IMG/VR virus record: IMGVR_UViG_3300037537_000966
Coordinates: 1 to 53,050 of that record
Source: a virus
Taxonomy: Duplodnaviria; Caudoviricetes
Length of the DNA: 53,050 nucleotides
Reading direction: 5' to 3' (one strand)
A model generated the notes under the pieces. The model had not been told where the DNA came from. It did no database searches and was given only the letters and a program-made list of their open reading frames with translations. This document shows, in pieces, positions 2,333 through 16,008 of this stretch (position 1 is the first letter of the stretch; the number at the start of each line of letters is the position of its first letter). The position numbers and the translations under genes are program-made.

Positions 2333-2350
2333 AAAAATTTATTTAAATTT

Positions 2351-3214: not shown

Positions 3215-3215
3215 C

Positions 3216-3244: not shown

Positions 3245-3282
3245 AATATACTGATACGCAAGGATTTACTACTTACTGATAT

Positions 3283-3390: not shown

Positions 3391-3399
3391 CCCATTGAC

Positions 3400-3938: not shown

Positions 3939-3975
3939 TTGACATTCGGTTCTGTTTATGAGACAATTAGGAGTG

Positions 3976-4230
3976 ATGACAATTAGAAAGAAAGGTTCTG
4001 GACGCACAAAGGGCGCGACGAGTCTAATAGAGGTCAACCTACGAGAGCTTAACCGTGTTCTCAAAGAAGATTGCGTAGTCATGGTCGGGCGCAAGTATGC
4101 AGAGCAACTTAATCTTGTTACTGGAAAGCGCATCGTATCTAATTATGCGAATGTATCGGCTGCTGCGCCTCTTGACGTACAAGAGACTGAAGTAGAGGAA
4201 AAGCTATCTGTTAAAAGTATTGACTTTTAA
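3976..4230 (+). CDS. hypothetical protein with basic N-terminus (RKKGSGRTKG)
   Basis: ORF track 3958-4230; promoter TTGACA-17-GACAAT at 3939-3967 favours ATG 3976. Confidence 0.7.
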   Translation: MTIRKKGSGRTKGATSLIEVNLRELNRVLKEDCVVMVGRKYAEQLNLVTGKRIVSNYANVSAAAPLDVQETEVEEKLSVKSIDF

Positions 4231-4248
4231 TCAAGACTCTGTTATACT
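4220..4248 (+). promoter_or_regulatory. sigma70-like promoter, leaderless
   Basis: TTGACT-17-TATACT with extended TG; ATG 6 nt downstream. Confidence 0.75.
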
Positions 4249-4254
4249 ACTTAA

Positions 4255-5184
4255 ATGGTTACTACTGAATTTCCAGATATTATTGGGCAAGACAATGCAA
4301 AGAGAGTCCTTAACTTTTTTTGTAATGGCTATAAACAGACCAGTATTATGCCTCACCTTATGTTTGTCGCGCCCAAGGGTTGCGGCAAAACAACTATGGC
4401 CAAGGCGACAGCGCGGCGGCTGAAGGCTATAAACAGGGACAAGAGGTATTTCGAGATAAACTGTTCTACGATTAAGAACGTAAAGCAGTTCTTCAATCAA
4501 CTCGTTATTCCCTATATGCAGGACAGGGATGCTACTATCTTGTTTGATGAATGCAGCGAGATTCCCAAGGATGTTACGATGGCGTTGCTGACCATCCTTA
4601 ACCCGAATCCAGACAACCGAACTTCCTTCACTTTGGAGGACTATACTGTTGACTTTGATTTTCGGCGGCTATCTTTCATGTTCGCCACAACCGAGACTCA
4701 ATCTGTATTCCATGCGTTGATGGACAGGCTGGAGCGCGTTGACCTAGAGGAATACACATTGGACGAGATGGGCAAAATTGTCTGCCTTAATCTGGACATT
4801 AAAGTTGAGCCGAAAGCATTAAAGGATATAGCATCTGTCTTGCGCGGCAATGCGAGAGCAGCACAAAAGATGGCTCAAAAAATTGATTCTTATTGCAAAC
4901 AGTATAAAATTAAAAGATTTGATTATCCTCATTGGAATAAATTAGGTAAGATATTAAGCATATATCCATTAGGTTTAAACATAACAGAAATTATATTGTT
5001 AAACATATTAAAAGATAATAAAGATTGTAGTTTAACTAAATTATCTGCAAAGACTGGTATATCTAAACAAGCAGTACAAAGAGATTTTGAAATCTATCTG
5101 CAAAAGCATAGCTTAATGGATATCACAACTGCTGGCAGAAACATAACAGCCAAAGGTTTGAAATATCTGAAGAAACTTGCTTGA
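4255..5184 (+). CDS. ruvB: RuvB-like AAA+ ATPase (Holliday junction branch migration family)
   Basis: Walker A APKGCGKTT, Walker B ILFDE, sensor ATT, Arg finger LMDRL, RGNAR (RuvB RGTPR), C-terminal LGL...TAGR winged helix. Confidence 0.8.
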   Translation: MVTTEFPDIIGQDNAKRVLNFFCNGYKQTSIMPHLMFVAPKGCGKTTMAKATARRLKAINRDKRYFEINCSTIKNVKQFFNQLVIPYMQDRDATILFDECSEIPKDVTMALLTILNPNPDNRTSFTLEDYTVDFDFRRLSFMFATTETQSVFHALMDRLERVDLEEYTLDEMGKIVCLNLDIKVEPKALKDIASVLRGNARAAQKMAQKIDSYCKQYKIKRFDYPHWNKLGKILSIYPLGLNITEIILLNILKDNKDCSLTKLSAKTGISKQAVQRDFEIYLQKHSLMDITTAGRNITAKGLKYLKKLA

Positions 5185-5209
5185 CATTGAAGTAAGTTAG
5201 TAGTATACT
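5181..5209 (+). promoter_or_regulatory. sigma70-like promoter
   Basis: TTGACA-17-TATACT; the -35 overlaps the TGA stop of the RuvB-like gene. Confidence 0.8.
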
Positions 5210-5256
5210 TAAGAAGTAGTCAGCGACTGACTCAAACAAAAATAAATAAATAGATC

Positions 5257-5436
5257 ATGGGAATGCGTAACCACACATATACGTTGGAAGTCGAACGCCA
5301 GACCGGCGGCGACTTGAAGATTAACTCGGCTCAACAGCTAGTTAAGGCAAATCAACATACCTCTCGTTACGAGAAGGTAAATAAGAAGGCTTTCTCGGCC
5401 GCTCTCAATGCGTCGAGTCCGCTTCGAACGCGTTAG
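5257..5436 (+). CDS. hypothetical protein (59 aa)
   Basis: Manual translation MGMRNHTYTLEVERQTGGDLKINSAQ...PLRTR. Confidence 0.65.
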   Translation: MGMRNHTYTLEVERQTGGDLKINSAQQLVKANQHTSRYEKVNKKAFSAALNASSPLRTR

Positions 5437-5446
5437 CGTTCAACAC

Positions 5447-5527
5447 GGGAGTCTCTGGCATGGTGCTGGACGAGATGTTCATGACAGGGTTAGTAGGTTA
5501 TCCTAGTGAAACACCAGAGTAACTCCC
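5447..5527 (+). ncRNA. candidate structured RNA motif, copy 1 (three-way junction)
   Basis: Stems GGGAGT/ACTCCC and CTCTGG/CCAGAG; core CATGGTG..ACAGGGTT..TGAAACA shared with 8666-8756. Confidence 0.6.
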
Positions 5528-5586
5528 CCTCTTTCTAGTCCGCCAATATAAAGTAGAGCTGGGCGCTCGTAAGGACATAGAGAACC

Positions 5587-5614
5587 AGACCCCGCTTCGG
5601 CGGGGTCTTTTTTT
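5587..5614 (+). terminator. intrinsic terminator
   Basis: AGACCCCGC-TTCG-GCGGGGTCT followed by T run. Confidence 0.9.
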
Positions 5615-5695
5615 GTTGCCCATTTTCCCCATTTATTGCAAATAAGGCAAATATAGTGTTATTCTAATGATATTCATTCTCAAGAAGGTCCATCC

Positions 5696-5770
5696 TAAGT
5701 CATTGATTACCAGAGAGTTACGGCGCGGCCCTCCCCCCCCGCGCGTAAGTCTTTGATGCTCAACGACTTA
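5696..5770. repeat. 75-bp double-palindrome element, copy 1
   Basis: TAAGTCATTG-attac-CAGAGAGTTA, 25-nt GC spacer, TAAGTCTTTG-atgct-CAACGACTTA. Confidence 0.9.
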
Positions 5771-5788
5771 TCGTGTCACTTTTAAGGC

Positions 5789-5900
5789 TTGACTTACGTA
5801 TCAGTGTATGGTATACTTATTGAAGTGAGTGCGGGAATGCTTAACATAAAAACAACCGAAGAAATTAAAGCTTGACTTTTAAAACAGTTACTGATATAAT
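5789..5900 (+). promoter_or_regulatory. two tandem sigma70-like promoters
   Basis: TTGACT-17-TATACT (5789-5817) and TTGACT-17-TATAAT (5872-5900). Confidence 0.8.
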
Positions 5901-5906
5901 AAAAAC

Positions 5907-6806
5907 ATGGCTAGAACTACAAGACCAACCACAGAGAACTACAATTTCGACGTTAAAATGACGGAGTTGTACACGCCAGACCAAAAACCAACAGGATTTT
6001 GGGGGACGCGCAGGACAGACACCGGCCAAGTGCTAGGTGTAACGAGTGACAAGTATGGCTTGTTGCTAAACAGCGACCTCATTGACTCTGTCGAAGGAGC
6101 TTTTTCCGATAGGAAATTAGACTTCGAGCGCAAAGTCTTTGTGGCTCGTGATGGTGCGAGTATGTACGCTCGCTATGACTTTCCCAATGAACAAGCGCGT
6201 ATTGGAGGTTCTCATAATGTCGGCGATACGCTTGGCATGAGAATCACCGCTCGTAACTCTTATGACCGTACTTGTACGGGCGACTTGGAATTGGGCTTGT
6301 TGCGGCTTATCTGCACCAACGGCATGAAGGGTGTCAAACGCGCCTTCGGTTTCAAGCAGAAGCATTCCCGCAAGTTGAATCTTGATGGGGTCGCTGGTGC
6401 TGTTGACCGAGCGATTGATGCCTTCGCTACTGTTGGGGAAGACCTCGGTCTGCTCGCAGATAGGTCTATTGACAACGACATTGGTGAGTACATTCTCAAG
6501 AATCTTGAGAGTGACAAAGTTCTCTCGACTAAACTTCGGGAGGAAATTGTGAAGTTGTGGTTCACGCCCGACATGATGCTCAACTATGGTAAAGGAGAGA
6601 AGGCAGAACGCAATCTGTACACTCTCTACAACTGCACGACTCAACATCTCACTCACAAAGTAGAGTCGGAGCGGTTTGAGTATGCGGATAAGGTCAACCA
6701 AAGCGTGTTGACTAAATTCGTGAAAGCTTGTAAGGAGAAAAAGACATGGGATAAGCTCACGCGCATCCCTACCGCGAAGGCGGAAGATGTCCTCGTTACG
6801 AGTTAG
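5907..6806 (+). CDS. DUF932 family protein
   Basis: RTDTG-x-VLG-x2-S-x2-Y, NSYDRT, LRLICTNG and KHS motifs. Confidence 0.8.
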   Translation: MARTTRPTTENYNFDVKMTELYTPDQKPTGFWGTRRTDTGQVLGVTSDKYGLLLNSDLIDSVEGAFSDRKLDFERKVFVARDGASMYARYDFPNEQARIGGSHNVGDTLGMRITARNSYDRTCTGDLELGLLRLICTNGMKGVKRAFGFKQKHSRKLNLDGVAGAVDRAIDAFATVGEDLGLLADRSIDNDIGEYILKNLESDKVLSTKLREEIVKLWFTPDMMLNYGKGEKAERNLYTLYNCTTQHLTHKVESERFEYADKVNQSVLTKFVKACKEKKTWDKLTRIPTAKAEDVLVTS

Positions 6807-6838
6807 TTAGCCGCGCCTTTGTGTGCGCGCAAATACAC

Positions 6839-6870
6839 GGGGGAGGTGCAACGCCTCCCCCTTTTCTTTT
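6839..6870 (+). terminator. terminator-like hairpin
   Basis: GGGGGAGG-TGCAACG-CCTCCCCC then TTTTCTTTT. Confidence 0.7.
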
Positions 6871-6944
6871 AACGGGGTAGCCAAGTGGTAAGGCGGGAGT
6901 CTGCAAAACTCTTATCGTGGGTTCGATTCCCACCCTCGTTTCCA
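6871..6944 (+). tRNA. tRNA-Cys (GCA)
   Basis: Acceptor AACGGGG/CCTCGTT, D arm GCC-AAGTGGTAA-GGC, anticodon loop CTGCAAA, T arm GTGGG-TTCGATT-CCCAC, U73 discriminator, encoded CCA. Confidence 0.95.
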
Positions 6945-7019
6945 TAAGTCATTGCCCACCAAAGAGTTACGGCGCGGGGGGAGGCCCGCCAACCTAAGTC
7001 TCTGATGCTCAGAGACTTA
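6945..7019. repeat. double-palindrome element, copy 2
   Basis: TAAGTCATTG-cccac-CAAAGAGTTA, 25-nt spacer, TAAGTCTCTG-atgct-CAGAGACTTA; starts directly after the tRNA CCA. Confidence 0.9.
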
Positions 7020-7037
7020 TCGTGTTACTTTTTAAGG

Positions 7038-7142
7038 TTGACATGGAGGCCAGTTCGTGTTATACTTTAAGAAGTTATGGGGAGTACGCACACAAAAACC
7101 GCACATATTTTGCTTGACACTTGAGGGGTTTTCTGCTATACT
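7038..7142 (+). promoter_or_regulatory. two tandem sigma70-like promoters
   Basis: TTGACA-17-TATACT at 7038-7066 and 7114-7142. Confidence 0.8.
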
Positions 7143-7152
7143 CTTTTGCGTT

Positions 7153-7788
7153 ATGAGACTTACTGTCAAACTTGCAGAGGGACGCGTTGGTTCACTTTCC
7201 ACACCGTCGAAGATGCCCGGATTTGGTTATAGCACACCAGCCGAGGACTGTATAAAAGGTTCAAAAATGCGGACAGTTGTTAATTCAATCTGTTCTTTTT
7301 GCTATGCGCTCAAAGGGCGTTACGTTTTCCCTAAAGTAAAGGCCGCACAGAAGAAACGGCTGAAGTCATTGGGGCAACTCGATTGGGTTGACATGATGGT
7401 TTTCATGATTAACAAGAGGGAGAAGACTGGCTTTTTCCGTTGGCATGATGCTGGTGACGTTCAAGGCATCTGGCATCTTGAAAAGATTGCAGAGGTTGCA
7501 AGGCGATTGCCTCACATTCAATTTTGGTTGCCTACGAGAGAATACTCCTTTGTTCGTGAGTGGATGGCTTTTGGTCGTAGGCCCGACAATCTTATTATTC
7601 GATTGTCTGCCCTGATGATGGACGGTGCGCCGCCTGTTAGTCTGGCGAAGCGTTTAGGCTTAACAACGAGCGGAGCAAGAACTGACGGAAGTTTCACCTG
7701 TCCGGCATCGGAGCAAGGCAACGAGTGCAAGGACTGCCGAGCCTGTTGGGACGATACGGTTGAAAACATTGATTACAAAAAGCATTGA
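7153..7788 (+). CDS. Gp88-like Cys-rich phage protein
   Basis: SKMPG, CSFCYALKG, FRWHDAGD, WLPTRE, CPA-x2-QG-x2-C-x2-C-x2-CW, terminal Y-x-KH; start set at the ATG after the promoter. Confidence 0.8.
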   Translation: MRLTVKLAEGRVGSLSTPSKMPGFGYSTPAEDCIKGSKMRTVVNSICSFCYALKGRYVFPKVKAAQKKRLKSLGQLDWVDMMVFMINKREKTGFFRWHDAGDVQGIWHLEKIAEVARRLPHIQFWLPTREYSFVREWMAFGRRPDNLIIRLSALMMDGAPPVSLAKRLGLTTSGARTDGSFTCPASEQGNECKDCRACWDDTVENIDYKKH

Positions 7789-7813
7789 CATTTGAACAAG
7801 TCAGAGGTATACT
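7785..7813 (+). promoter_or_regulatory. sigma70-like promoter
   Basis: TTGACA-17-TATACT overlapping the upstream TGA. Confidence 0.75.
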
Positions 7814-7821
7814 TAAAAGAG

Positions 7822-7893
7822 ATGAGCGTGATTTTCATTCTATTTCTAATATTTTTCGTGGCTTGGGGCTTGGACTACTTCAAGTATGATTAA
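7822..7893 (+). CDS. putative hydrophobic micropeptide (23 aa)
   Basis: MSVIFILFLIFFVAWGLDYFKYD, 8 nt after a -10 box, filling the gap between two promoters. Confidence 0.5.
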   Translation: MSVIFILFLIFFVAWGLDYFKYD

Positions 7894-7900
7894 TTAGTTC

Positions 7901-7929
7901 TTGACATTGAGGGCAAAATGTGCTATACT
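7901..7929 (+). promoter_or_regulatory. sigma70-like promoter
   Basis: TTGACA-17-TATACT followed by GCGAGTGAGAGAAA. Confidence 0.8.
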
Positions 7930-7963
7930 TTACCCAGCGAGTGAGAGAAAAACAAACTACAAA

Positions 7964-8395
7964 ATGGATACAAACATAACTTACTACAGACAGGTGTTCA
8001 GCAAAGACGATTGGGCAATAGGGATGGAGGGGACAGACCACGACTATATGGAACGTCGTTTCTGGGCGTTTTGGAACTGGAAAGCCACAAGCGGCAAACT
8101 CGATTGGTGGACAGACAACTTCGCCGTGTTCTGGACTGACGAAGCCAGATTCAAGCAAGCGGTGCTTGAGATATACAGGACGCAAGTCCTGCGCGATGTG
8201 GGAGCAGATACCTTGAAGGGACAGAAGGGCGGGGCAGATTTCTTTGCTCGTGATTGCGCGGATAGCTTTATGGACACGATGCTAAACGACGAGGTGTTCT
8301 ACACGGCGAAGATGAGGGCGATTGATACAACTACTCACGCAGAATTAACCATTGGCGCAGAGGACTTGAGCGATTACGACTCTGTTAAAGCGTAA
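7964..8395 (+). CDS. hypothetical protein
   Basis: ORF track 7901-8395; the track's TTG start is the -35 box, first ATG is 7964. Confidence 0.7.
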   Translation: MDTNITYYRQVFSKDDWAIGMEGTDHDYMERRFWAFWNWKATSGKLDWWTDNFAVFWTDEARFKQAVLEIYRTQVLRDVGADTLKGQKGGADFFARDCADSFMDTMLNDEVFYTAKMRAIDTTTHAELTIGAEDLSDYDSVKA

Positions 8396-8401
8396 GACTT
8401 T

Positions 8402-8659
8402 ATGACGAAAGCGAAAGAAGTTAGGAACGGGTGCTTGTATTATAACAAGCAGAGCAAAAGAGTAGAGCGGGCAATTGGTCGAGTAGGCAGGCGAATATTT
8501 ACGTACTGCCACGACACTGACCCTTCAGTGGTTAAGGTCGATAACCTGATCAAGGCTAGCTCTAAGCAGGTAACCAACTATTTGGATGCTCCAAATAAAG
8601 GGAGGAGCTCCAAGATCAGGCGTGCCCTGAAGACAATAAGCAGTTTGAAGATTTTTTGA
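8402..8659 (+). CDS. hypothetical basic protein
   Basis: ORF track. Confidence 0.7.
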   Translation: MTKAKEVRNGCLYYNKQSKRVERAIGRVGRRIFTYCHDTDPSVVKVDNLIKASSKQVTNYLDAPNKGRSSKIRRALKTISSLKIF

Positions 8660-8665
8660 TACAGT

Positions 8666-8756
8666 GTTGAGACCTCTCCGGCCATGGTGATCCGGGAGAG
8701 CCGGGTACAGGGTTTAGTTGTATCTCACCTTCATGAAACAGCCGGAAGGTCTCGAC
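8666..8756 (+). ncRNA. candidate structured RNA motif, copy 2
   Basis: Stems GTTGAGACCT/AGGTCTCGAC, TCCGGC/GCCGGA, ATCCGG/CCGGGT; same core as 5447-5527. Confidence 0.6.
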
Positions 8757-8760
8757 CCCT

Positions 8761-8834
8761 TAAACCCCTAAGTCGCAAAGACTTAGGGTGGGGGCCGGGG
8801 GCGGCTCCGTAACTCTCTCCGCACCAACGACTTA
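8761..8834. repeat. double-palindrome element, copy 3
   Basis: TAAACCCCTA-agtcg-CAAAGACTTA, 24-nt spacer, TAACTCTCTC-cgcac-CAACGACTTA. Confidence 0.8.
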
Positions 8835-8861
8835 CCTTTTAAAAAAACTTTAAAAAAAAGG

Positions 8862-8890
8862 TTGACATTTACACCTTAACGTGTTATACT
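8862..8890 (+). promoter_or_regulatory. sigma70-like promoter
   Basis: TTGACA-17-TATACT with upstream A tracts. Confidence 0.85.
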
Positions 8891-8897
8891 ATTGGAA

Positions 8898-9026
8898 GTG
8901 AGTGAGAGAAAACAACCAAAGGTTCGCAAGCAGGTGAAATGGAACACCGGCGAACGCATTCACAAAACTAAAAAAGGAAAAGGCTCTTATGATCGCAAAA
9001 CTGATAAACCCAAAGAAGATAACTGA
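8898..9026 (+). CDS. ArfA-like small basic protein (42 aa)
   Basis: GTG start 7 nt after the -10; MSERKQPKVRKQVKWNTGERIHKTKKGKGSYDRKTDKPKEDN carries the ArfA motif KKGKGSY-x-RK. Confidence 0.65.
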   Translation: MSERKQPKVRKQVKWNTGERIHKTKKGKGSYDRKTDKPKEDN

Positions 9027-9570
9027 CTTCAACAGAACAAAAGCAGACCTTGAATTGTTTGCTATTTTTGCTGTCTGTGTTGCCGGAAAGAAGTCACAAC
9101 AAACTGCTGACAAAGTCAACGACCATTTCAGGGACACGGAGACACCAACCAAACGACTCACACCTTTCGAGACTATCAAAAGCCTTGTCAAGATAAGAGT
9201 TTTCGGAGCCTATTTGCAGATGGCAAAGGTTGGGCAATACAAAAGGATTTACAGAGCGTTAAGAGACTTGGCTGAATCTGGTATTGATTTGAAGACTTGC
9301 ACAGTTGAAGACCTTGAAGCAATTCATGGCATCGGGCCAAAGACAGCAAGGTTTATTATTATGCATTCCAGACCTTATCAAAGGCTGGCAACCTTAGACA
9401 CTCACATTTTAAAATGGATGAGAGACCAAGGGATCAAAACCCCAAAAGCAACGCCACAGAGTCAAAAATTATATAAAGAATTAGAACAAAAGTTCTTGAC
9501 ATTATGCGATAACTGTGGTATGATACCTTCTCAGTTAGACTTAGAGATATGGAAACAATACAGCAAATAG
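8989..9570 (+). CDS. HhH-family DNA glycosylase, Ogg2-like (8-oxoguanine)
   Basis: HhH IHGIGPKTARF with catalytic-position Lys, LDTHIL Asp, Y-x-ELE, LDLEIW, terminal Lys. Confidence 0.7.
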   Translation: MIAKLINPKKITDFNRTKADLELFAIFAVCVAGKKSQQTADKVNDHFRDTETPTKRLTPFETIKSLVKIRVFGAYLQMAKVGQYKRIYRALRDLAESGIDLKTCTVEDLEAIHGIGPKTARFIIMHSRPYQRLATLDTHILKWMRDQGIKTPKATPQSQKLYKELEQKFLTLCDNCGMIPSQLDLEIWKQYSK

Positions 9571-9893
9571 AAAAACCTAAATTCGCCTCTGCGCCTGATT
9601 GGCCGGGATTCTCAATGACATTCAAGAATGGTTGGGAGATATCGGTTCAGTTTGGTGGAGGGCACTACTGCTCCAACAGAATGAAGGATAGTTCATCCAG
9701 ACAGAGCGAGACAGCAGAGGTCGCTATCTTCGCTCCTGATAAAGATGGTTTCCCTAGAGAGTGGTGGTCATACGACGAAGACATTGACAATGTAGTCGAG
9801 CAGCCAGATGAGAGCTTTGTAAATGGTTGGCTAACAACTGACCAAGTAGCGAGTATAATAAATATAATATCTAATAAAAATGAGACTAAATAA
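9549..9893 (+). CDS. hypothetical phage protein
   Basis: ORF track; F-x-NG-x2-ISVQ and AEVA pattern. Confidence 0.75.
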   Translation: METIQQIEKPKFASAPDWPGFSMTFKNGWEISVQFGGGHYCSNRMKDSSSRQSETAEVAIFAPDKDGFPREWWSYDEDIDNVVEQPDESFVNGWLTTDQVASIINIISNKNETK

Positions 9894-10152
9894 CATAAGC
9901 AATAATGAGACGGAAGTCATCTTCAATGAGAGACTTGTAGACGACAGCAAACGAGCAACCTTCTTCTTCTCGTATGGGACACCAGTCGCTGCTAAGGTAG
10001 GTGTCAAATATTACAAGACAGAAGAGAAGTTCAGCAAAACAACTTCGCGCCATATCAATAAGTGGTTAGAGGGTGTCCGAGTCGAGGTACAGCCTCAGAA
10101 CTGGTTTGCCAAGGCTATCCTTGAAGTACACGCGCCAATGTTCTCAACGTAA
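9880..10152 (+). CDS. hypothetical phage protein
   Basis: ORF track; SYGTPVAA and S-x-TTSRHINKW motifs; its TAA is the first triplet of element copy 4. Confidence 0.75.
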   Translation: MRLNNISNNETEVIFNERLVDDSKRATFFFSYGTPVAAKVGVKYYKTEEKFSKTTSRHINKWLEGVRVEVQPQNWFAKAILEVHAPMFST

Positions 10153-10223
10153 CTTACTGGCGCAGAGAGACTTACGGTGGTGGGGGAGGCCGCGCGCGTA
10201 ACTCTTTGGTACTCAGTAGGATA
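10150..10223. repeat. double-palindrome element, copy 4
   Basis: TAACTTACTG-gcgca-GAGAGACTTA, 24-nt spacer, TAACTCTTTG-gtact-CAGTAGGATA. Confidence 0.85.
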
Positions 10224-10270
10224 AGAGAAACCCCCCGCCAAGGAAAACCAAAAAACCTCGGCAGGGGGTC
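10224..10270 (-). terminator. terminator-like hairpin at the convergence point
   Basis: Minus strand CCCCCTGCCGAGG...CCTTGGCGGGGGG followed by TTTCTCTT. Confidence 0.55.
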
Positions 10271-10289
10271 GTGTTATGAGGGAAAAGTG

Positions 10290-10538
10290 GGAAACCTGTT
10301 ACATTTTTTGGAGTGCTACTCCTAACTAGGTGCTAACGTAGGTTGTATTCAGGCTTCCTAAATTTTGAGTCGTTGTCGCGCCACCAACAAATGCGCAGGT
10401 AAGTCCTGCTCCAGCGTAAGATGTCTTACCATCCCTGTCCCTAGCGCGTTTATAGCTTAAGGGCGATGGAGGCGTAGTAACCGCCGACTCTAAATCGTTC
10501 TGAGCGTCACGCTGCGTTTAAAGCGTAGCACTCAGATT
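10290..10538 (-). ncRNA. candidate multi-domain structured RNA
   Basis: No ORF in the track; nested stems GAGTC/GACTC, CTCCA/TGGAG, GCAGG/CCTGC, GTAAG/CTTAC, GGAAGCCTG/CAGGTTTCC. Confidence 0.45.
10502..10536 (-). repeat. 35-nt hairpin repeat, copy 1
   Basis: Identical to 12257-12291. Confidence 0.85.
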
Positions 10539-10544
10539 CGGTGG

Positions 10545-10757
10545 CTAGATAGCCACCGCGCTTTGGATTCCGTCGAAACGGAATCGTTTCCAAAGGCCAG
10601 ACTCCGTATCCTTGGCAGCCATTCCAGCGGAGTTGTCGCTCTCGCTGTAATTTGCAAACTGCTGGTCTAACTCGACCTTGTAGGAGTATGCCGTGTTGTC
10701 ACTATTAACCTGTCCCTCGTGGACAGCCGGTATGTAGTCGATTAAGAATTTCTTCAT
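10545..10757 (-). CDS. hypothetical protein
   Basis: ORF track; promoter TTGACT-17-TATACT at 10810-10782. Confidence 0.7.
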   Translation of the reverse strand: MKKFLIDYIPAVHEGQVNSDNTAYSYKVELDQQFANYSESDNSAGMAAKDTESGLWKRFRFDGIQSAVAI

Positions 10758-10806
10758 ATATTTCTTACTTCCAATAAATTAAGTATAACAGAAACTGAAC
10801 CCAAAG

Positions 10807-11019
10807 TCAAGACAAAAGTTGCTTTAATTGGTTCGGGCTTAAGATTTCGTCTATTTCAGCTTCCATCTCCTTGGCCCATTTGACCTCCTCTGGCGTATAC
10901 ATATCAGCCCATTCGATAACACCCATGCACTTGCCCTTAAGGCCAGCCAATTTACAACGCAAGGAGATGATGGTGTCTTGTGCCTTGTGCAGTTTCTTTA
11001 GGTTTTCTAATTCACTCAT
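10807..11019 (-). CDS. hypothetical protein
   Basis: ORF track. Confidence 0.7.
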   Translation of the reverse strand: MSELENLKKLHKAQDTIISLRCKLAGLKGKCMGVIEWADMYTPEEVKWAKEMEAEIDEILSPNQLKQLLS

Positions 11020-11168
11020 AGGTTTAAAAATGCCACTCTCCAGTATCTAAACACCTCGTCGAATCCAATGACGAATCCGCAAACGATAGCCAGAACCAGC
11101 GCGAAGCCAATCACGGGCGCATAATAATATCGAAGCATTGCCTCTTTGTAGTCTTTTGTTTCACTCAT
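11016..11168 (-). CDS. small single-TM membrane protein
   Basis: MSETKDY...PVIGFALVLAIVCGFVIGF; promoter TTGACA-17-TATACT at 11204-11176 sets the start. Confidence 0.65.
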   Translation of the reverse strand: MSETKDYKEAMLRYYYAPVIGFALVLAIVCGFVIGFDEVFRYWRVAFLNL

Positions 11169-11212
11169 TAGAATAAGTATAACAGGTTCTTGCGTAAATG
11201 TCAAGCCTTTTT

Positions 11213-11377
11213 TTAGGTTTCGTGACGGTCGCACTCTTCGCAAATCACGCCCCAATCGTATGGGTTGCCCCATTCCCTGACTTCGTTTTCTTCGCTGTCT
11301 TCTGCGCTGCATTGGTCACAGGTCAGCACCTTGCCTGTGAAGCGGTCAAGTGTTTTTTCGTATTTCTTTTCCTTCAT
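11213..11377 (-). CDS. small zinc-finger-like protein
   Basis: CDQC...CEEC; promoter at 11416-11388 then GTTATG. Confidence 0.65.
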   Translation of the reverse strand: MKEKKYEKTLDRFTGKVLTCDQCSAEDSEENEVREWGNPYDWGVICEECDRHET

Positions 11378-11421
11378 AACTGCAAATATGATAACACAAA
11401 ATGCCAAATATGTCAAGAACT

Positions 11422-11772
11422 TTATTGACCTAAAATATGCCTTCCGTTGATGCTGACTATGTCCTTCTTAAATATAGGATCCCCTGTCTCGACAGAAATA
11501 AAGCTTTTATACTTGTAGGGGTTGTAGGTAATCCTCTCACTCTTTTCACCATCAAAAAACGCAACGTTGGTTGGTGTGCCGCTGATATAGGCATGGACGT
11601 TTTTTCTCTTTTCACGTAACACTTTTTTCCTGCCCGCGTGCTGGACATGGAACGTCACATCTTTCAATGTGATAGAGTCGACATGGTCAATCACGATGCC
11701 TCTTTTCCTGACGCTCAAGCATTTTTTATGCAGATTATAATAAACTTGCACTTTTTTATTTAGTACGTTCAT
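11422..11772 (-). CDS. conserved-type hypothetical phage protein
   Basis: VYYNLHK, AGR-x-KVLREK-x-KNVHAY, YNPY motifs. Confidence 0.75.
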   Translation of the reverse strand: MNVLNKKVQVYYNLHKKCLSVRKRGIVIDHVDSITLKDVTFHVQHAGRKKVLREKRKNVHAYISGTPTNVAFFDGEKSERITYNPYKYKSFISVETGDPIFKKDIVSINGRHILGQ

Positions 11773-11954
11773 AAGTTTTCAAGTTGTGCTTGGAAGTTCG
11801 CAAGTGGGCTGCCCGGATGGGGCTGCATCCCTCGTTTGAACTGCTCCCATGTTGGGCGGCGATCTTCAGGGATTGTTTTCCATTGTCTCATTTGGCGTTT
11901 GCGCACCTCTTCTACTCTCTTGAACTGGTCATCTGTCGTATCTGTACCTCTCAT
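11769..11954 (-). CDS. hypothetical protein
   Basis: ORF track; promoter at 11992-11965 then GTTATG. Confidence 0.7.
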   Translation of the reverse strand: MRGTDTTDDQFKRVEEVRKRQMRQWKTIPEDRRPTWEQFKRGMQPHPGSPLANFQAQLENL

Positions 11955-12010
11955 AACTGGTAATAGTATAACAGAAATTGAGGAAAAGTCAAGCTTTTTT
12001 TTTGTTGTTG

Positions 12011-12086
12011 TAAACCATTGAGTACCAGAGAGTTGCGGCGGCGGGGGGGGAGCGGCTGACCTAAGTCATTGATAATCAACGACTTA
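12011..12086. repeat. double-palindrome element, copy 5
   Basis: TAAACCATTG-agtac-CAGAGAGTTG, 26-nt spacer, TAAGTCATTG-ataat-CAACGACTTA. Confidence 0.9.
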
Positions 12087-12246
12087 AAGCCTCGGCAATT
12101 GAGCCGAATCCGCGGTTGAAGGCTTGGCGATACTGCCTTGCCTTTTTGACCCGCTGGCGTTCCGCTTTGGCGGCGGCTGCACCAGCCCTCTGGCGTTTCC
12201 AATCCTCAAGATTTTTGAGGATGGTCTCATTATGGTTTTGAGACAT
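12076..12246 (-). CDS. hypothetical protein (56 aa)
   Basis: Manual translation MSQNHNETILKNLEDWKRQRAG...SIAEALSR; stop lies inside element copy 5. Confidence 0.6.
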   Translation of the reverse strand: MSQNHNETILKNLEDWKRQRAGAAAAKAERQRVKKARQYRQAFNRGFGSIAEALSR

Positions 12247-12256
12247 AAATTTAAAA

Positions 12257-12291
12257 GAGCGTCACGCTGCGTTTAAAGCGTAGCACTCAGA
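12257..12291 (-). repeat. 35-nt hairpin repeat, copy 2
   Basis: Identical to 10502-10536. Confidence 0.85.
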
Positions 12292-12300
12292 CACGACAGC

Positions 12301-12654
12301 TTACCAGCCGTCGTTGCAGCCGTAATCCTCATCACCGCTGTCGAAACAGCCGTAATCCTCATCCGTGCCGAATCCAGCACTTGCCAGCACATCGGCGTCA
12401 GCCATTGCGTCGCTGTGGAAACCGTCCGAAGGCTCGTCAGCATCGCTGCTGCCCGATTCCTCGAATGACCAAACCGACTCGACCTCGCCGTCATGCTCGC
12501 GCATGACATCCGTGCCGATATCGTTGGCGGCCTCAATCGCGTCCTCAAGCCCGTCATGGCTCACATCGAACATACGGAAAAGTCCGTCCTCATCCTTAAT
12601 GAAGTAGTGGTTCATATTATTTTCGTTTTTCATCTCTGTATTTCTCTCACTCAC
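12301..12654 (-). CDS. highly acidic hypothetical protein; paralog of 14055-14297
   Basis: DEDGLFRMFDVSH shared with paralog; acidic tail DADVLASAGFGTDEDYG; start at GTG after promoter 12690-12662. Confidence 0.7.
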   Translation of the reverse strand: MSERNTEMKNENNMNHYFIKDEDGLFRMFDVSHDGLEDAIEAANDIGTDVMREHDGEVESVWSFEESGSSDADEPSDGFHSDAMADADVLASAGFGTDEDYGCFDSGDEDYGCNDGW

Positions 12655-12853
12655 TGGTAAAATTGTAGCACATTTTAGGCACGAAGTCAAGTCCTTTTTC
12701 ATCTTTTTCTTCACTTTTTTTTCGCGGCACAAACTCCTCGCTGACTGGCTTTTCGCGTGGGATGAAAGCGTGCTTTGTCACCTTCAGGGTGCGGCGGATG
12801 AAGCCAGCGTAATTGGCTCCGTAGACTTCGGTCGTTGTTTTTCTCTCACTCAC
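12647..12853 (-). CDS. hypothetical protein with GTG-SERK start
   Basis: Frame of ORF 12647-12889; promoter TTGACT-17-TATCAT at 12889-12861; no early in-frame ATG. Confidence 0.45.
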   Translation of the reverse strand: MSERKTTTEVYGANYAGFIRRTLKVTKHAFIPREKPVSEEFVPRKKSEEKDEKGLDFVPKMCYNFTSE

Positions 12854-12926
12854 TAGGAATATGATAGCAGAAAAGACGGAAGAAGTCAAGAACTATTTTC
12901 ACTTTTTTTCACTTTTTTTCATGTCG

Positions 12927-13001
12927 TAAGTTACTGATTACCAAAGACTTAGATCGGCGCGCACCCCCTGTCAGCGTAACTCTCTGATAATCAGACTCTT
13001 A
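12927..13001. repeat. double-palindrome element, copy 6
   Basis: TAAGTTACTG-attac-CAAAGACTTA, 25-nt spacer, TAACTCTCTG-ataat-CAGACTCTTA. Confidence 0.9.
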
Positions 13002-13232
13002 GCACCAGTAAGGATCGTTTTTATAGCACTTCTGACACTCCGGCACGGTGTCGCCCGTGTGCCCCTCCGGGCGATACCATTGCTCGCCGCAGCCTTCGCA
13101 CTCGACGAGATCCTCCTCGGCATCCTGCGCGAGAATGGCTTCATTTTCCAACTCATCGCACCACACGTTCAACTCCGCACGCTCCTGCGCACTGGCCTCG
13201 AAAACTTCCTCACAACTAATCATATCTGTCAT
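12999..13232 (-). CDS. acidic zinc-finger-like protein
   Basis: CEGC...CQKC; promoter 13270-13243; its stop is the outer TTA of element copy 6. Confidence 0.7.
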   Translation of the reverse strand: MTDMISCEEVFEASAQERAELNVWCDELENEAILAQDAEEDLVECEGCGEQWYRPEGHTGDTVPECQKCYKNDPYWC

Positions 13233-13307
13233 AACTAAGAACAGTATAGCACAAATGACGAGAATGTCAACACTTTTTTTACTTTTTTTTTAATTATTTT
13301 TGTTTTG

Positions 13308-13382
13308 TAAGTCATTGACTATAAGAGAGTTACACCGGCGGGCAGTGCGCGTGGCCGTAACTCTTTGATTACCAAGCAATTA
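13308..13382. repeat. double-palindrome element, copy 7
   Basis: TAAGTCATTG-actat-AAGAGAGTTA, 25-nt spacer, TAACTCTTTG-attac-CAAGCAATTA. Confidence 0.9.
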
Positions 13383-13680
13383 CAACTCTAAAAAAACATT
13401 TTTGAGGCGGCAATTCCTTCCAAGTCCAGTACGGCGAAGTCATCGACATTTTATAAGTGCCGAGATGAACCATATCTGTCCAATTCTTTAAATCTTCAGA
13501 ATATTGCAATTTATACATTATAAAAGGTTCTAAATCTGTTAATTTAAAATAGATTCCACTTTCTAAACCGTAAGCATTACCATTTGGCAAAGTCTTTTGT
13601 TGAACAGGAACAATCTTTAAACTTGGTGCAGCGTTTAAACTAACAGAGAATAAGAATAAGAAAAGGATAATTTTTTTCAT
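13369..13680 (-). CDS. secreted protein with signal peptide
   Basis: MKKIILFLFLFSVSLNA signal; YKLQYSEDLKNW...FFRV motif. Confidence 0.75.
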   Translation of the reverse strand: MKKIILFLFLFSVSLNAAPSLKIVPVQQKTLPNGNAYGLESGIYFKLTDLEPFIMYKLQYSEDLKNWTDMVHLGTYKMSMTSPYWTWKELPPQKCFFRVVIAW

Positions 13681-13685
13681 TATTT

Positions 13686-14000
13686 TTAGTAATTGTCTTT
13701 GTGGAATCTGCCTTTGATGGAGCTATCCTCAAAGCACTTTTCGATTTCAACGACTTCGAGCATTTCGCCCTTTGTCCAAGTCTTACCGTTAATGTCCTTC
13801 ACGACTGTTTCGCCAAGGAACTCGTTGGTCATTTCCTTCTCGGTTGTTCCGAGCGGGAAGGTGTTGCCCATCACGCTGTTTACCGTGGCGAGGTTGTGGT
13901 TTCCCTTGTAGTTAGGGTTTCGTCTTACCTTGAAGGTAACATTTAGGAATCTAATCTTTTCTTTCATTTCTTTCATTTCGTTGTTCTTTCTCTCACTCAC
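13686..14000 (-). CDS. hypothetical protein (MSERK start)
   Basis: ORF track; promoter TTGACT-17-TAGGAT at 14036-14008. Confidence 0.7.
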   Translation of the reverse strand: MSERKNNEMKEMKEKIRFLNVTFKVRRNPNYKGNHNLATVNSVMGNTFPLGTTEKEMTNEFLGETVVKDINGKTWTKGEMLEVVEIEKCFEDSSIKGRFHKDNY

Positions 14001-14054
14001 TTGTTATATCCTATCACATTTTAGCTTAAAAGTCAAGCTTTATTTTCACTTTTT

Positions 14055-14297
14055 TTAGCATCTGCCAGTAAACTCATTGTTGCTGACCTTGAGCGACCAG
14101 ACCGTTTCGGCCGTATCGTTTTCGCGATGAATCATCACGCAGGTTTCTGGATTGTTCCAAGTGGCTTTACGTGCGACCTTAATCGCGTTTTCAAGTCCTT
14201 TATGACTCACATCGAACATACGGTAAAGACCGTCCTCATCCCGCACATAGTAGTATGGATTTTTCATATTTTCTTCAGTTATCTTTCTCTCACTCAC
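14055..14297 (-). CDS. hypothetical protein; paralog of 12301-12654
   Basis: DEDGLYRMFDVSH; promoter TTGACT-17-TAGACT at 14333-14305. Confidence 0.7.
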   Translation of the reverse strand: MSERKITEENMKNPYYYVRDEDGLYRMFDVSHKGLENAIKVARKATWNNPETCVMIHRENDTAETVWSLKVSNNEFTGRC

Positions 14298-14370
14298 TGG
14301 ATATAGTCTATCAGAAAAAACGGTAAAAGTCAAGCTTTATTTGCATTTAATTTCACTTTTTTTTGTGTTG

Positions 14371-14444
14371 TAAGTCATTGGGGCGTAAAGAGTTACGATG
14401 CGGGGTAGGGCCGCAGCCCTAAGTCTTTAGTAGTTGGTCACTTA
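14371..14444. repeat. double-palindrome element, copy 8
   Basis: TAAGTCATTG-gggcg-TAAAGAGTTA, 24-nt spacer, TAAGTCTTTA-gtagt-TGGTCACTTA. Confidence 0.85.
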
Positions 14445-14445
14445 A

Positions 14446-14964
14446 TTAGAGTTTATAGAAAGCGTGTTGGCCTATCACCTTGACTGGTTTCTTGCCCTTA
14501 GCCCAATAGGGCTTCTTCTTCATCCATGTGGCATGGTAGTGGTTAGCATAGCCCACATAGCTACGGCTCAAGTGCTTGACTGTCTTGGCTAACAGTATAG
14601 CGTACTTACCCTGTGGTAGTGTGAGCAGGTGCTCTAGGTCTTTAAGCTTCTTACCATTCCAACAGCTGAACTGGTAAGCCCTCAAGCATACCTGCTCTGG
14701 TGTACGCTTACGCTCAAAGGCACGCTGTGCTATGACAGCAGCCACAGCATACATACCAGCGTTGCCCTCACCTCTTGCCTCTGCCAGTATGGTGATAGCT
14801 ACCACCTTATGCTCTCGTGTGAGCGTGTATGTACGGTGCGTATGCTCTTGCCCTGCTACCTTGCATATGGTAGCTATACCCCATAGGATGAAGAAGGCAA
14901 TCAGTATCTTCTCTACTATATAGTTTTGATTTCCGTATTTCATTTGATTCAATTCCAATTCCAT
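14446..14964 (-). CDS. SleB/Hydrolase_2-like cell wall hydrolase with N-terminal TM
   Basis: AEARGEG, AVA-x-VI-x2-R, YQFSCWN, HYH, PYWA, IG-x-H-x-FY. Confidence 0.85.
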   Translation of the reverse strand: MELELNQMKYGNQNYIVEKILIAFFILWGIATICKVAGQEHTHRTYTLTREHKVVAITILAEARGEGNAGMYAVAAVIAQRAFERKRTPEQVCLRAYQFSCWNGKKLKDLEHLLTLPQGKYAILLAKTVKHLSRSYVGYANHYHATWMKKKPYWAKGKKPVKVIGQHAFYKL

Positions 14965-15149
14965 TCTGGTGCGCTGCCCTTGTAAGGCTTGCTCAAGCGG
15001 ATTGTTTCGAGTGCTTCCTTGACCATGCGCTCGTCTGCGCGTGCCTTGGCCTGTGCTGCCTCGACCCTCTTCTGCGCCTTGTCTCTGAAGGCCAGCCCGC
15101 TAACCATTTCGTATGATGTCATTCTCTTATTTGTTATTCTCTCACTCAC
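14949..15149 (-). CDS. hypothetical protein (GTG-SER start)
   Basis: ORF track frame; promoter TTGACA-17-TATGAT at 15185-15157. Confidence 0.65.
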   Translation of the reverse strand: MSERITNKRMTSYEMVSGLAFRDKAQKRVEAAQAKARADERMVKEALETIRLSKPYKGSAPEWNWN

Positions 15150-15203
15150 TGGTGATATCATATCACATAATCGGTTAATTGTCAACACTTATTTTCAACT
15201 TTT

Positions 15204-15398
15204 TTAGCACTCACAACCGAAGTCCCAGATCTCTCCATCGACTACATTACCGACTGCTTCAGCAGCTTCGAACATTTCCTCGCGTCTCTTTTCGAGAGCT
15301 TCGGTTTTCTTTGCCTCGCGGCGATTGCGTATGCTGAAGTGTCGGCGAATCTCTGTCATTGTCATTTCGTTTTTCATGTTGTTCTTTCTCTCACTCAC
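15204..15398 (-). CDS. hypothetical protein (MSERK start)
   Basis: ORF track; TATACT 7 nt upstream. Confidence 0.7.
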   Translation of the reverse strand: MSERKNNMKNEMTMTEIRRHFSIRNRREAKKTEALEKRREEMFEAAEAVGNVVDGEIWDFGCEC

Positions 15399-15461
15399 TG
15401 AAGATAGTATAGCACAATCTCAGAAAAATGCAAGCTTTATTTTCACTTTTTTTTTATCTTA

Positions 15462-15535
15462 TAAGTCACTGGTAGTCAGAGAGTTACAGCGGCGGGCAGG
15501 GTAGCCTCGCTAACTCTTTGAGGCTGAGTGGGTTA
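15462..15535. repeat. double-palindrome element, copy 9
   Basis: TAAGTCACTG-gtagt-CAGAGAGTTA, 24-nt spacer, TAACTCTTTG-aggct-GAGTGGGTTA. Confidence 0.85.
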
Positions 15536-15537
15536 CG

Positions 15538-15717
15538 TTACTCCCCGCAAAGAGCTTCGTCACCGAACCAGCCGAAGTCCTCGACGGCCTCGGCCAAGTC
15601 GCTCGCTCGCATGGCCGTAACCACGCGGTATCCTTCGTGTCCCTCAACGGGCGCGATGACACGGTCATCCTGCGCGTTGAGCCAATCGATGTGTCGGTCT
15701 TTTATTCTGTCCCTCAT
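15538..15717 (-). CDS. hypothetical protein
   Basis: Frame of ORF 15538-15888; promoter at 15755-15728 then GTTATG gives start 15717. Confidence 0.65.
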   Translation of the reverse strand: MRDRIKDRHIDWLNAQDDRVIAPVEGHEGYRVVTAMRASDLAEAVEDFGWFGDEALCGE

Positions 15718-16008
15718 AACTGAAAAGAGTATAGCAGAATCTGGCAGAATGTCAACACTTTTCTTCACTTTTTTTACACCCCCTAGTTTATGAAAAGGTA
15801 GGGGGGGAGGGGTGTCAATATAGAGCGGGGTGGCCCTTTTTTCAGTCTCCCCGAGGCTTTTGAGTGTTTCTGATATACGCATTCCCAAAAAATCCGCCGG
15901 GGCTATCTCTAAAAAGGTGTTTCTAAGGTGTATACCTTAATATAAGACTGAAAGCTCGTTTAAGAAAAACGGACAACACGTTAATAGTTAAGAAAAAGGA
16001 AATAGACA

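What the first reader, a model, noticed from the sequence alone, without database searches (positions are those of the whole stretch)
5696..15535. Nine 74-76 bp double-palindrome elements with fixed geometry (best candidate for an undescribed system)
Seen: copies at 5696, 6945, 8761, 10150, 12011, 12927, 13308, 14371 and 15462. Each has two 25-bp imperfect palindromes (10-5-10, consensus TAAGTCWYTG-N5-CARMGASTTA) separated by a 24-26 nt very GC-rich spacer of variable sequence, often with a G or C run. Inner arms tend to CAGAGAGTTA/TAACTCTYTG and outer arms to TAAGTCATTG/CAACGACTTA, so the whole element is also an inverted repeat. The 5-nt cores and spacers vary while lengths are conserved. 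Inference: paired sites about 50 bp apart for a dimer-of-dimers DNA-binding protein, or a foldable attC-like recombination site. I saw no copy outside 5.7-15.5 kb and no recombinase in the window.
Basis: partly seen in the sequence, partly recalled or inferred. Interest (0 to 1): 0.88.

Follow-up and report, generated by a model that had tools for sequence, protein, structure and literature searches.

The report
Paired-palindrome boundaries between phage gene cassettes
An uncultured marine phage separates its small early-gene cassettes with a repeated 74-76 bp DNA signal (two palindromes around a GC-rich spacer) that sits in helical register ahead of host-type promoters and marks the points where related phages have flipped and swapped those cassettes.

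Summary
Nine 74-76 bp elements (two 25-bp palindromes, 24-26 nt GC-rich spacer) lie only at 5696-15535 (27 palindrome hits vs 0.2 expected).

Each lies between the end of one early-gene cassette and, in 8 of 9 cases, an A-tract plus sigma-70 promoter and conserved leader.

The family is widespread in uncultured phages that share core genes with the window: 211 unique double elements from 66 sources.
- Spacing is fixed within a genome.
- Arms show no compensatory covariation.
- The spacer is 83% GC but folds no better than shuffles.
- The gap to the -35 box has a 10.5-bp period.

Close relatives have the flanked cassettes inverted in place, with synteny breaking in the elements. Complete relatives lack integrase, resolvase, HUH transposase and HU/IHF genes. 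Other relatives carry different symmetric elements, some plain terminators, at the same place.

Verdict: a new variant of PeSL-type promoter/stem-loop cassette boundaries, probably protein-docking sites. The binder is not identified. This scan noted the same kind before on other genomes.

The parts
5696..5770 (.). Element 1: palindrome, 25-nt GC spacer, palindrome. First boundary after the conserved left arm.
   Evidence: Collinearity with L053 and L153 ends inside or at it.
5771..5838 (+). 18-nt gap, sigma-70 promoter (hexamers 5789-5817) and conserved leader, driving the DUF932 cassette.
6945..7019 (.). Element 2. It starts one base after tRNA-Cys (6871-6944).
7020..7066 (+). 18-nt gap and promoter (7038-7066) of the GP88 cassette.
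8761..8834 (.). Element 3. Its first palindrome is degenerate.
8835..8911 (+). 27-nt gap of two A-tracts, promoter (8862-8890) and leader (8897-8911) of the Ogg-HhH cassette.
10150..10223 (.). Element 4, at the convergence of the two gene arms. Its first TAA is the stop codon of ORF 9880-10152. No promoter follows it.
12011..12086 (.). Element 5.
11965..12010 (-). 18-nt A-tract gap and promoter (11992-11965) reading leftward.
12927..13001 (.). Element 6. Its last TTA is the stop codon (minus strand) of ORF 12999-13232.
12861..12926 (-). 37-nt gap of phased A-tracts and promoter (12889-12861).
13308..13382 (.). Element 7. The stop codon of ORF 13369-13680 (minus strand) lies inside its outer arm.
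13243..13307 (-). 37-nt A-tract gap and promoter (13270-13243).
14371..14444 (.). Element 8. The stop codon of the cell-wall hydrolase ORF 14446-14964 (minus strand) lies 2 nt beyond it.
14305..14370 (-). 37-nt A-tract gap and promoter (14333-14305).
15462..15535 (.). Element 9. The stop codon of ORF 15538-15888 (minus strand) lies 2 nt beyond it.
15385..15461 (-). A-tract gap, promoter-like TTGCAT box (read by eye, not called by the scan) and leader (15399-15385).
   Evidence: Absent from the list.

Best explanation
The elements are the boundary modules of an array of self-expressed early-gene cassettes. Functionally this is a variant of the promoter-early/stem-loop (PeSL) cassettes of T4-type phages.

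Each boundary reads: stop codon of the upstream cassette, double palindrome, one to four phased A-tracts, sigma-70 promoter, conserved leader, then 1-3 small accessory genes.

The two 25-bp palindromes are most likely read as duplex DNA by a dimeric protein, phage or host, not identified. That protein would sit on a fixed face of the helix relative to RNA polymerase at the next promoter. It would act as an upstream control or architectural site and as an insulator between cassettes.

Because the element is symmetric and repeated, it is also the place where recombination flips, swaps, adds and removes cassettes without disturbing their expression.

Shown: anatomy, distribution, lack of pairing covariation, helical periodicity, breakpoints at the elements.
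Inferred: protein binding, effect on transcription, mechanism of recombination.
For: - Non-random and confined to one region in three genomes.
- 8 of 9 window copies are followed by an A-tract, a promoter and a leader.
- 5 of 9 abut or overlap the upstream stop codon, and 1 abuts a tRNA.
- The same layout holds in G001 and G002.
- Family-wide, outward-pointing promoters lie on 21.8% of flanks, against 9% background and 5% inward.
- The half-site consensus is shared by contigs whose core proteins are only 35-45% identical. It occurs on both sides of the RuvB tree.
- No compensatory covariation. At positions 4/22, Watson-Crick pairing is 49-58% against 44-47% in shuffles, and G.G and C.C are common. 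Cognate arms are no more complementary than non-cognate arms.
- Spacing is fixed within a genome.
- The gap to the -35 box peaks at about 7, 18, 28, 38 and 49 nt. Rayleigh R is 0.40 at a 10.5-bp period after collapsing to 77 flank clusters, and 0 of 2000 control subsamples reach that value.
- Cassettes are inverted in place between flanking elements in the window, L153 and L151/L053, with alignments ending in or at the elements.
Against: - No binding protein was found. The best-associated ORF family (13 of 21 positive loci, 0 of 59 negative) is absent from the window and from G001's array. The RuvB neighbour and its small partner also occur in motif-negative relatives.
- Only 21 of 80 loci chosen by RuvB homology carry the motif. 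Close relatives carry other symmetric elements in the same place, one type being an ordinary GC hairpin plus T-run terminator. The role may therefore need only a stem-loop.
- 13 of about 21 strong promoters in the region have no element, and element 4 has no promoter.
- The 10.5-bp periodicity can also come from gaps built of whole A-tract units.
- Flanks from related phages are not independent observations.
- The two palindromes are not a whole number of helical turns apart, and that spacing varies between lineages.
Confidence: 0.5

Rival explanations
1. Passive PeSL-type linker. The element is just the stem-loop half of a promoter/stem-loop cassette with no dedicated protein. Its sequence is kept alike by concerted evolution within genomes and spread by cassette exchange between co-infecting phages. 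General phage recombination acts on the ~75-170 bp of homology.
For: - Same order of parts as PeSLs (Comeau 2014, PMC4122927, text read).
- Relatives carry unrelated symmetric elements at the same place.
- The TAAGTC type is patchy on the RuvB tree: 9 label changes, at least 5 forced by supported branches.
- Breakpoints fall at the elements.
- Arbiol 2010 (PMC2839356, passages read) notes that under 50 bp of homology suffices for T4-type recombination.
Against: - The half-site is conserved between lineages with about 42% RuvB identity, while spacers and flanks diverge.
- There is no selection for pairing.
- The distance to the promoter is helically periodic.
Confidence: 0.22
2. RNA-level signal. 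The transcribed element folds into a long two-stem hairpin with an internal loop and a GC-rich tip. It would act as a terminator, a 3'-end stabiliser or an RNase III-type processing site between cistrons. The comparison with the intergenic processing sites of T7 early RNA is recalled, not checked.
For: - Elements abut stop codons.
- Several fold as a long hairpin, with z-scores down to -6.55 and 3 of 9 beaten by no shuffle.
- In lineages with 53-58 bp spacing, the spacer is a GC hairpin followed by T-rich sequence.
- Relatives have true terminators at the equivalent position.
- PeSL stem-loops terminate transcription (Arbiol 2010, abstract and methods passages).
Against: - 6 of 9 window folds are unremarkable, with z between -0.8 and -2.5.
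- No compensatory changes.
- No U-run follows the element in the window. An A-tract follows instead.
- Canonical terminators occur separately at 5587 and 6839.
- The spacer's strand bias is independent of promoter side, 11 vs 14.
- Rfam has no match.
- An RNA role does not explain the DNA helical register.
Confidence: 0.15
3. Dedicated mobile or site-specific recombination site: attC-like, REP/REPIN-like or MITE-like, served by its own recombinase or transposase.
For: - The elements bound cassettes that differ in GC from the rest of the genome and that invert and move.
- The element begins with TAA and ends with TTA.
- The overall inverted-repeat symmetry resembles REPIN and Correia elements (recalled).
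Against: - No Phage_integrase, Resolvase or Y1_Tnp domain in the window, in G001 (83% complete) or in G002 (100% complete).
- No empty-site pair was seen among close relatives.
- Copies lie in one region only, never dispersed.
- Only 20 hits in genomes of 185,579 species, all on MAG contigs.
- Cassettes are not promoterless.
Confidence: 0.06

Closest known systems
PeSL (promoter-early stem-loop) cassettes of T4-type phages (Arbiol et al. 2010, PMC2839356; Comeau et al. 2014, PMC4122927)
   Same: - The order of parts matches: symmetric element, AT-rich tract, sigma-70-like promoter, leader/SD, small accessory ORF.
- They cluster in a hyperplastic early region.
- They lie at breakpoints of rearrangements between related phages.
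- Each cassette is expressed on its own.
   Different: - Here the stem-loop is replaced by a 74-76 bp tripartite unit: two 25-bp palindromes whose sequence, not pairing, is conserved, plus an 83%-GC spacer of fixed length.
- No U-run follows it in the window.
- Its distance to the promoter is helically periodic.
- The rearrangements seen are in-place inversions. The word 'inversion' does not occur in the main text of Arbiol 2010.
- The phage is not T4-like: its best terminase match among named phages is 24% identical, to Bacillus phages.
Upstream activator or architectural sites phased to sigma-70 promoters (class I CRP sites, Fis and IHF sites, curved A-tract DNA); recalled textbook knowledge
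   Same: A palindromic site upstream of an UP-like A-tract, at distances from the -35 box that step by about 10.5 bp. Positions 15-18 and 23-25 of the half-site fit the recalled IHF core consensus.
   Different: - The sites come in pairs 41-58 bp apart with a GC-rich filler.
- They also bound recombining cassettes.
- No cognate protein is known.
- No HU/IHF gene is present in three genomes of the clade.
- The window's own half-sites fit the IHF core less well than the family consensus does.
Integron attC sites
   Same: An imperfect inverted repeat with two pairs of boxes around a variable centre, lying directly after the stop codon of a gene cassette.
   Different: No integrase. Sequence is conserved, not structure. 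Cassettes carry their own promoters. Both orientations occur.
REP/BIME/REPIN and Correia-type small palindromic repeats of bacteria (recalled)
   Same: Short extragenic repeats with nested inverted symmetry, some of which hold IHF sites, promoters or terminators.
   Different: Those are dispersed through bacterial chromosomes and tied to RAYT or transposase activity. These are confined to one 9-16 kb region of phage genomes, with no Y1 transposase.

Membership tests
PeSL cassettes | Symmetric (stem-loop) element directly upstream of an AT-rich tract and a sigma-70-like early promoter, followed by SD and start codon | tested here: met
   8 of 9 window copies. The same holds in G001 and G002. 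Outward promoters are enriched family-wide.
PeSL cassettes | Clustered in a hyperplastic region of small non-essential ORFs | tested here: met
   All copies lie in one 9-16 kb region in three genomes. Cassette genes are diverse and variable between relatives.
PeSL cassettes | Rearrangement breakpoints between related phages fall at the elements | tested here: met
   Window vs L053, L151 and L153.
PeSL cassettes | The stem-loop is an effective transcription terminator | tested here: inconclusive
   No U-run follows the element in the window and there is no pairing covariation. Some lineages do embed a GC hairpin plus T-run in the spacer. Function cannot be assayed with these tools.
PeSL cassettes | Carried by T4-type myoviruses | tested here: not met
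   Terminase is at most 24-26% identical to any named phage, none of them T4-like. Most structural proteins have no PHROG match.
Integron attC | Adjacent IntI-type tyrosine recombinase | tested here: not met
   PF00589 is absent from G000, G001 and the complete G002. The control rang in 14 of 14 genomes.
Integron attC | Conserved folded structure with variable sequence | tested here: not met
   The reverse holds: sequence is conserved and there is no compensatory covariation.
Integron attC | Promoterless cassettes read from a common promoter | tested here: not met
   About 21 strong promoters lie within the array.
REP/REPIN or MITE | Cognate HUH (RAYT) or other transposase, and copies dispersed through the genome | tested here: not met
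   PF01797 is absent. Copies are confined to one region. No empty site was seen. DDE transposases were not searched.
Paired operator for a DNA-binding protein | Half-sites conserved independently of pairing, with fixed spacing | tested here: met
Paired operator for a DNA-binding protein | Stereospecific position relative to the promoter | tested here: inconclusive
   The 10.5-bp periodicity is robust, but the gaps are built of whole A-tract units.
Paired operator for a DNA-binding protein | A cognate protein that co-occurs with the site | tested here: not met
   No family tracks the motif and is also present in the window. Only +/-10 kb around RuvB was examined.

The most novel reading that the evidence does not exclude
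The paired palindromes are docking sites for a dedicated, still unrecognised protein. It is not a tyrosine or serine recombinase or an HUH enzyme. One candidate route is that it works with the clade's RuvB homologue and ERCC4-type nuclease on extruded cruciforms. The protein would both set the output of early promoters through phased curved DNA and actively channel inversion and exchange of accessory-gene cassettes. That would be a programmed cassette-shuffling platform, shared and horizontally traded among a large clade of uncultured aquatic phages.
Probability: 0.15. Interest if true: 0.8.

Novelty: new variant of a known kind. Interest (0 to 1): 0.55.

Why it matters
Early accessory regions are where phages keep host-takeover and counter-defence genes, and how these regions turn over so fast is poorly understood outside T4-like phages.

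This element shows that an unrelated, uncultured marine clade of 110-170 kb genomes uses the same cassette logic. Its boundary signal differs from a plain stem-loop: its sequence is conserved, it is symmetric, and it sits in register with the promoter.

The element gives a simple search key (two palindromes at a fixed offset) for locating such islands in metagenomes. It also provides a defined 25-bp bait for finding the protein that reads it, and natural examples of in-place cassette inversion that can be looked for in long-read data.

Tried and rejected
**Named phage records.** Megablast of 5000-16000 found nothing. A whole element found only one chance-level hit. The terminase gave only distant hits.

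**Rfam.** Only the tRNA matched.

**Crude ORF-context tally across the family.** It was too noisy to use: 23 of 211 elements fell 'inside' called ORFs, and all four strand contexts were seen.

**Strict promoter regex.** It found a promoter beside only 45 of 214 elements, and was replaced by a scored scan.

**Spacer as a hairpin.** Mean z was -0.39, and only 13.7% had z below -2, so this was rejected as a general property.

**Spacer polarity against promoter side.** No link: 11 vs 14 by promoter, 27 vs 24 by A-rich flank.

**Cognate vs non-cognate complementarity.** No positive signal. The negative z values are probably an artefact of mixed element orientations.

**Search for a binder by association over 80 loci.** The best family is a sub-clade cassette gene that the window lacks. 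w3958 occurs in 12 of 21 positive and 34 of 59 negative loci. w5257 occurs in 6 of 21 and 1 of 59.

**Sequencing runs.** No RNA holder is listed. DNA contigs of 4 runs were laid. Many joints lie in or beside the repeated modules (for example 10533 to 15540, 12919 to 13357, 15446 to 5693, 14318 to 15429). Their matching sides are only 23-40 letters at 90% likeness, so they may come from related phages or repeats. Uneven depth over cassettes was seen but is not usable as evidence.

**Tree.** The careful search did not finish, so only the quick tree was used. 10 of the 80 loci were left out beforehand because they had under 4 kb downstream of the gene, a short frame, or (L215) a truncated gene.

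**IHF idea.** It rests on a recalled consensus and was not tested. HU/IHF genes are absent from three genomes, which says nothing about the host.

**Supplements.** Supplementary files of the two PeSL papers were not opened. They may list stem-loop sequences that bear on how different this element is.

Full report
**What is there.** The window is a whole IMG/VR viral record of 53,050 bp, judged about 36% complete. The nine elements are real and highly non-random. All copies lie between 5696 and 15535. Each is two 25-bp imperfect palindromes around a 24-26 nt spacer. Minor corrections: two second palindromes start one base earlier than a 50-bp offset, and the first palindrome of copy 3 is degenerate.

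**Context in the window.** Aligning the units by the direction of the next gene shows that the conserved module is about 170 bp, not 76 (alignment A1). It runs: element, A-rich tract, AAAGCTTGACTT, 17 nt, TATACT, then the leader AGTGAGTGAGAGAAA. The leader motif has 13 matches against 2.7 expected. Copies 1-3 face rightward genes and copies 5-9 face leftward genes. Copy 4 sits where the two arms converge and has no promoter.
- Five copies abut or overlap the stop codon of the upstream ORF, and copy 2 starts one base after tRNA-Cys.
- The region holds about 21 strong sigma-70 promoters but only 9 elements, and it has separate canonical terminators at 5587 and 6839. The element is therefore neither an obligatory promoter part nor the only terminator.
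- The cassettes carry diverse accessory genes: DUF932, GP88, an Ogg-HhH-like protein, an L5 gp82-like protein and a cell-wall hydrolase.
- The region is 45-48% GC against about 38% elsewhere.

- The fetched stretches and the window hold 214 unique double elements in 66 sources, of which 211 have 40-60 bp spacing.
- Centre-to-centre spacing is uniform within a contig but differs between contigs: 50 bp in 96 of 214, otherwise 41/42, 48-53 or 57/58.
- Positions left free in the search pattern are also conserved, giving an 11-nt half-site, TAASTCRTTGA-N3-TCAAYGASTTA.
- Many of these contigs share PhoH, a sigma-like protein, an ERCC4-type nuclease, the terminase and a RuvB homologue with the window at about 35-45% identity. 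They form a real clade.
- In an 83%-complete relative (G001, 113 kb), 19 of 20 palindromes lie in 85-94 kb. In a complete relative (G002, 170 kb), all 18 lie in 0.4-15.7 kb or at 169.7 kb. Both show the layout element, promoter, 1-3 small genes.
- No named phage record holds the element or is close to this phage.
- In one genome for each of 185,579 prokaryote species, a double-palindrome pattern found 20 stretches. All are on MAG contigs of very mixed phyla, some of phage size. The motif is therefore a phage feature, not a host chromosomal one.

**Structure or sequence?** RNA folds of the nine copies range from z -6.55 to -0.83. Some form one long hairpin and others form local hairpins.
- Family-wide, the variable arm positions do not co-vary. 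At positions 4/22, Watson-Crick pairing is 49-58% against 44-47% in shuffles, whichever arms are paired, and G.G and C.C are common.
- Within genomes, arms of the same element are no more complementary than arms of different elements.
- The spacer is 83% GC against 41% in the flanks, but it folds no better than shuffles of itself (mean z -0.39). Clear hairpins, sometimes with a T-run, occur only in some lineages.
- The strand bias of the spacer is unrelated to the side on which the promoter lies (11 vs 14).

Together these points favour recognition of duplex half-sites over a selected RNA or DNA fold. They also show that the core behaves as a symmetric unit.

**Link to the promoter.** Outward-pointing sigma-70 promoters lie within 150 nt on 21.8% of element flanks, against 9% for random positions and 5% for inward-pointing promoters.
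- The gap between the element and the -35 hexamer is not fixed. It clusters at about 7, 18, 28, 38 and 49 nt. In the window the gaps are 18, 18, 27, 18, 37, 37 and 37.
- The Rayleigh statistic peaks at a 10.5-bp period: R 0.43 for 86 flanks, and R 0.40 after collapsing to 77 flank clusters. None of 2000 random-anchor control subsamples reaches that value.
- This tests, and agrees with, a claim made in earlier notes of this scan on other genomes.
- The gaps are visibly made of one to four phased A-tracts. The register may reflect modular curved/UP DNA, a need to face RNA polymerase, or both.

**Recombination.** L053/L151 and L153 are relatives at 65-90% nucleotide identity.
- The left arm, including RuvB, is collinear up to or into element 1.
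- The DUF932 cassette is rightward in the window and L153 but leftward in L151/L053.
- The GP88 cassette is rightward in the window but leftward in L153 and L151.
- The window has an extra Ogg cassette, and small genes and the tRNA sit in different cassettes.

Single cassettes have thus flipped in place between their flanking elements, independently of each other, and each still has its promoter next to an element. PeSLs were shown to recombine as direct repeats into deletions and mini-circles (Arbiol 2010, passages read). In-place inversion fits the symmetric nature of the present element.

**Who acts on it?** The window, G001 and the complete G002 have no tyrosine recombinase, serine recombinase, HUH transposase or HU/IHF domain, with positive controls ringing.
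- A full-length RuvB homologue (E 8e-13 to solved RuvB) adjoins the array in the window, L053 and G001. In G002 it lies about 20 kb away.
- Among 80 loci fetched by RuvB homology alone (287 relatives detected), 21 carry the double element. In most of those with several copies, the first lies 1.2-1.5 kb after the RuvB start.
- Relatives with more similar RuvB proteins lack the motif but have other repeated symmetric elements at the same place and period. One type is a GC-cored inverted repeat with a T-run, a plain terminator.
- On a quick RuvB tree, the TAAGTC type needs 9 label changes, at least 5 of them forced by supported branches, and it lies on both sides of the midpoint root.
- No protein family tracks the motif and is also present in the window.

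**Reading.** The element is a new, elaborate variant of the stem-loop half of PeSL-like cassette boundaries. The cassette-boundary and breakpoint roles are shown by comparison. Protein docking in register with the promoter is the best-supported mechanism (about 0.5) but remains an inference. A passive linker (0.22), an RNA signal (0.15) and a dedicated mobile site (0.06) remain possible, and the first two could coexist with the main reading.

**Literature.** Three searches found only the two PeSL papers as relevant. For Comeau 2014 I read parts 1-2 of 3 of the text. For Arbiol 2010 I read the abstract and searched passages. I found no description of this double palindrome in those searches.

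**Earlier notes.** Notes of this scan describe the same kind of element on other genomes. They are AI notes and not independent evidence.

Noticed in passing
window 3958-5184: A full-length RuvB homologue (309 aa, aligned over residues 7-306 to solved RuvB, E 8e-13) is preceded by a conserved 90-aa ORF. The pair borders the element array in the window, L053 and G001, and lies about 20 kb from the array in G002. It is a core gene pair of the clade: the small ORF occurs in 12 of 21 motif-positive and 34 of 59 motif-negative loci.
   Followed up: partly
L157, L161, L166; L169, L172; L159, L162 (downstream of RuvB): Relatives without the TAAGTC motif carry other repeated symmetric boundary elements: a GGGACCGGTCCC core between TTGACA-like arms followed by a T-run; a 16-nt inverted repeat containing CGTGCCAAG; and others. 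Each is followed by a GTGAATAA-like box and a sigma-70 promoter.
   Followed up: partly
L119 (elements at 928-7409): By eye, 83-bp TAAGTC elements whose spacer is a GC hairpin plus TTTT lie between an upstream A-run plus TTGACA and a downstream TGTCAAG plus T-run. It looks as if the element is nested inside the arms of the other element type.
   Followed up: no
window 6871-6944 vs L053 6294-6368: The tRNA-Cys gene lies inside the DUF932 cassette, directly against element 2, in the window. In the relative L053 it lies in the conserved left arm, with no element beside it.
   Followed up: partly
window 5824-15399: A conserved leader, AGTGAGTGAGAGAAA, follows many early promoters, with or without an element: 13 matches at up to 3 mismatches against 2.7 expected.
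   Followed up: partly
window 10224-10811: The non-coding stretch at the convergence point plus the first leftward gene is conserved in L053 (window 10169-10811 against L053 12024-12669, 70% identity). A bidirectional terminator-like hairpin lies at about 10230-10275 (read by eye).
   Followed up: no
window 6000-16000: The cassette region is 45-48% GC against about 35-41% in most of the rest of the window.
   Followed up: no
L151 14427-14669, L153 11563-11808 and 11 other loci: An ~80-aa protein family (conserved HTYTFTG, YSVT, DREF and SP.GW blocks) is found only in TAAGTC-positive loci (13 of 21 vs 0 of 59), often as the first gene after element 1. It is absent from the window and from G001's array.
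   Followed up: partly
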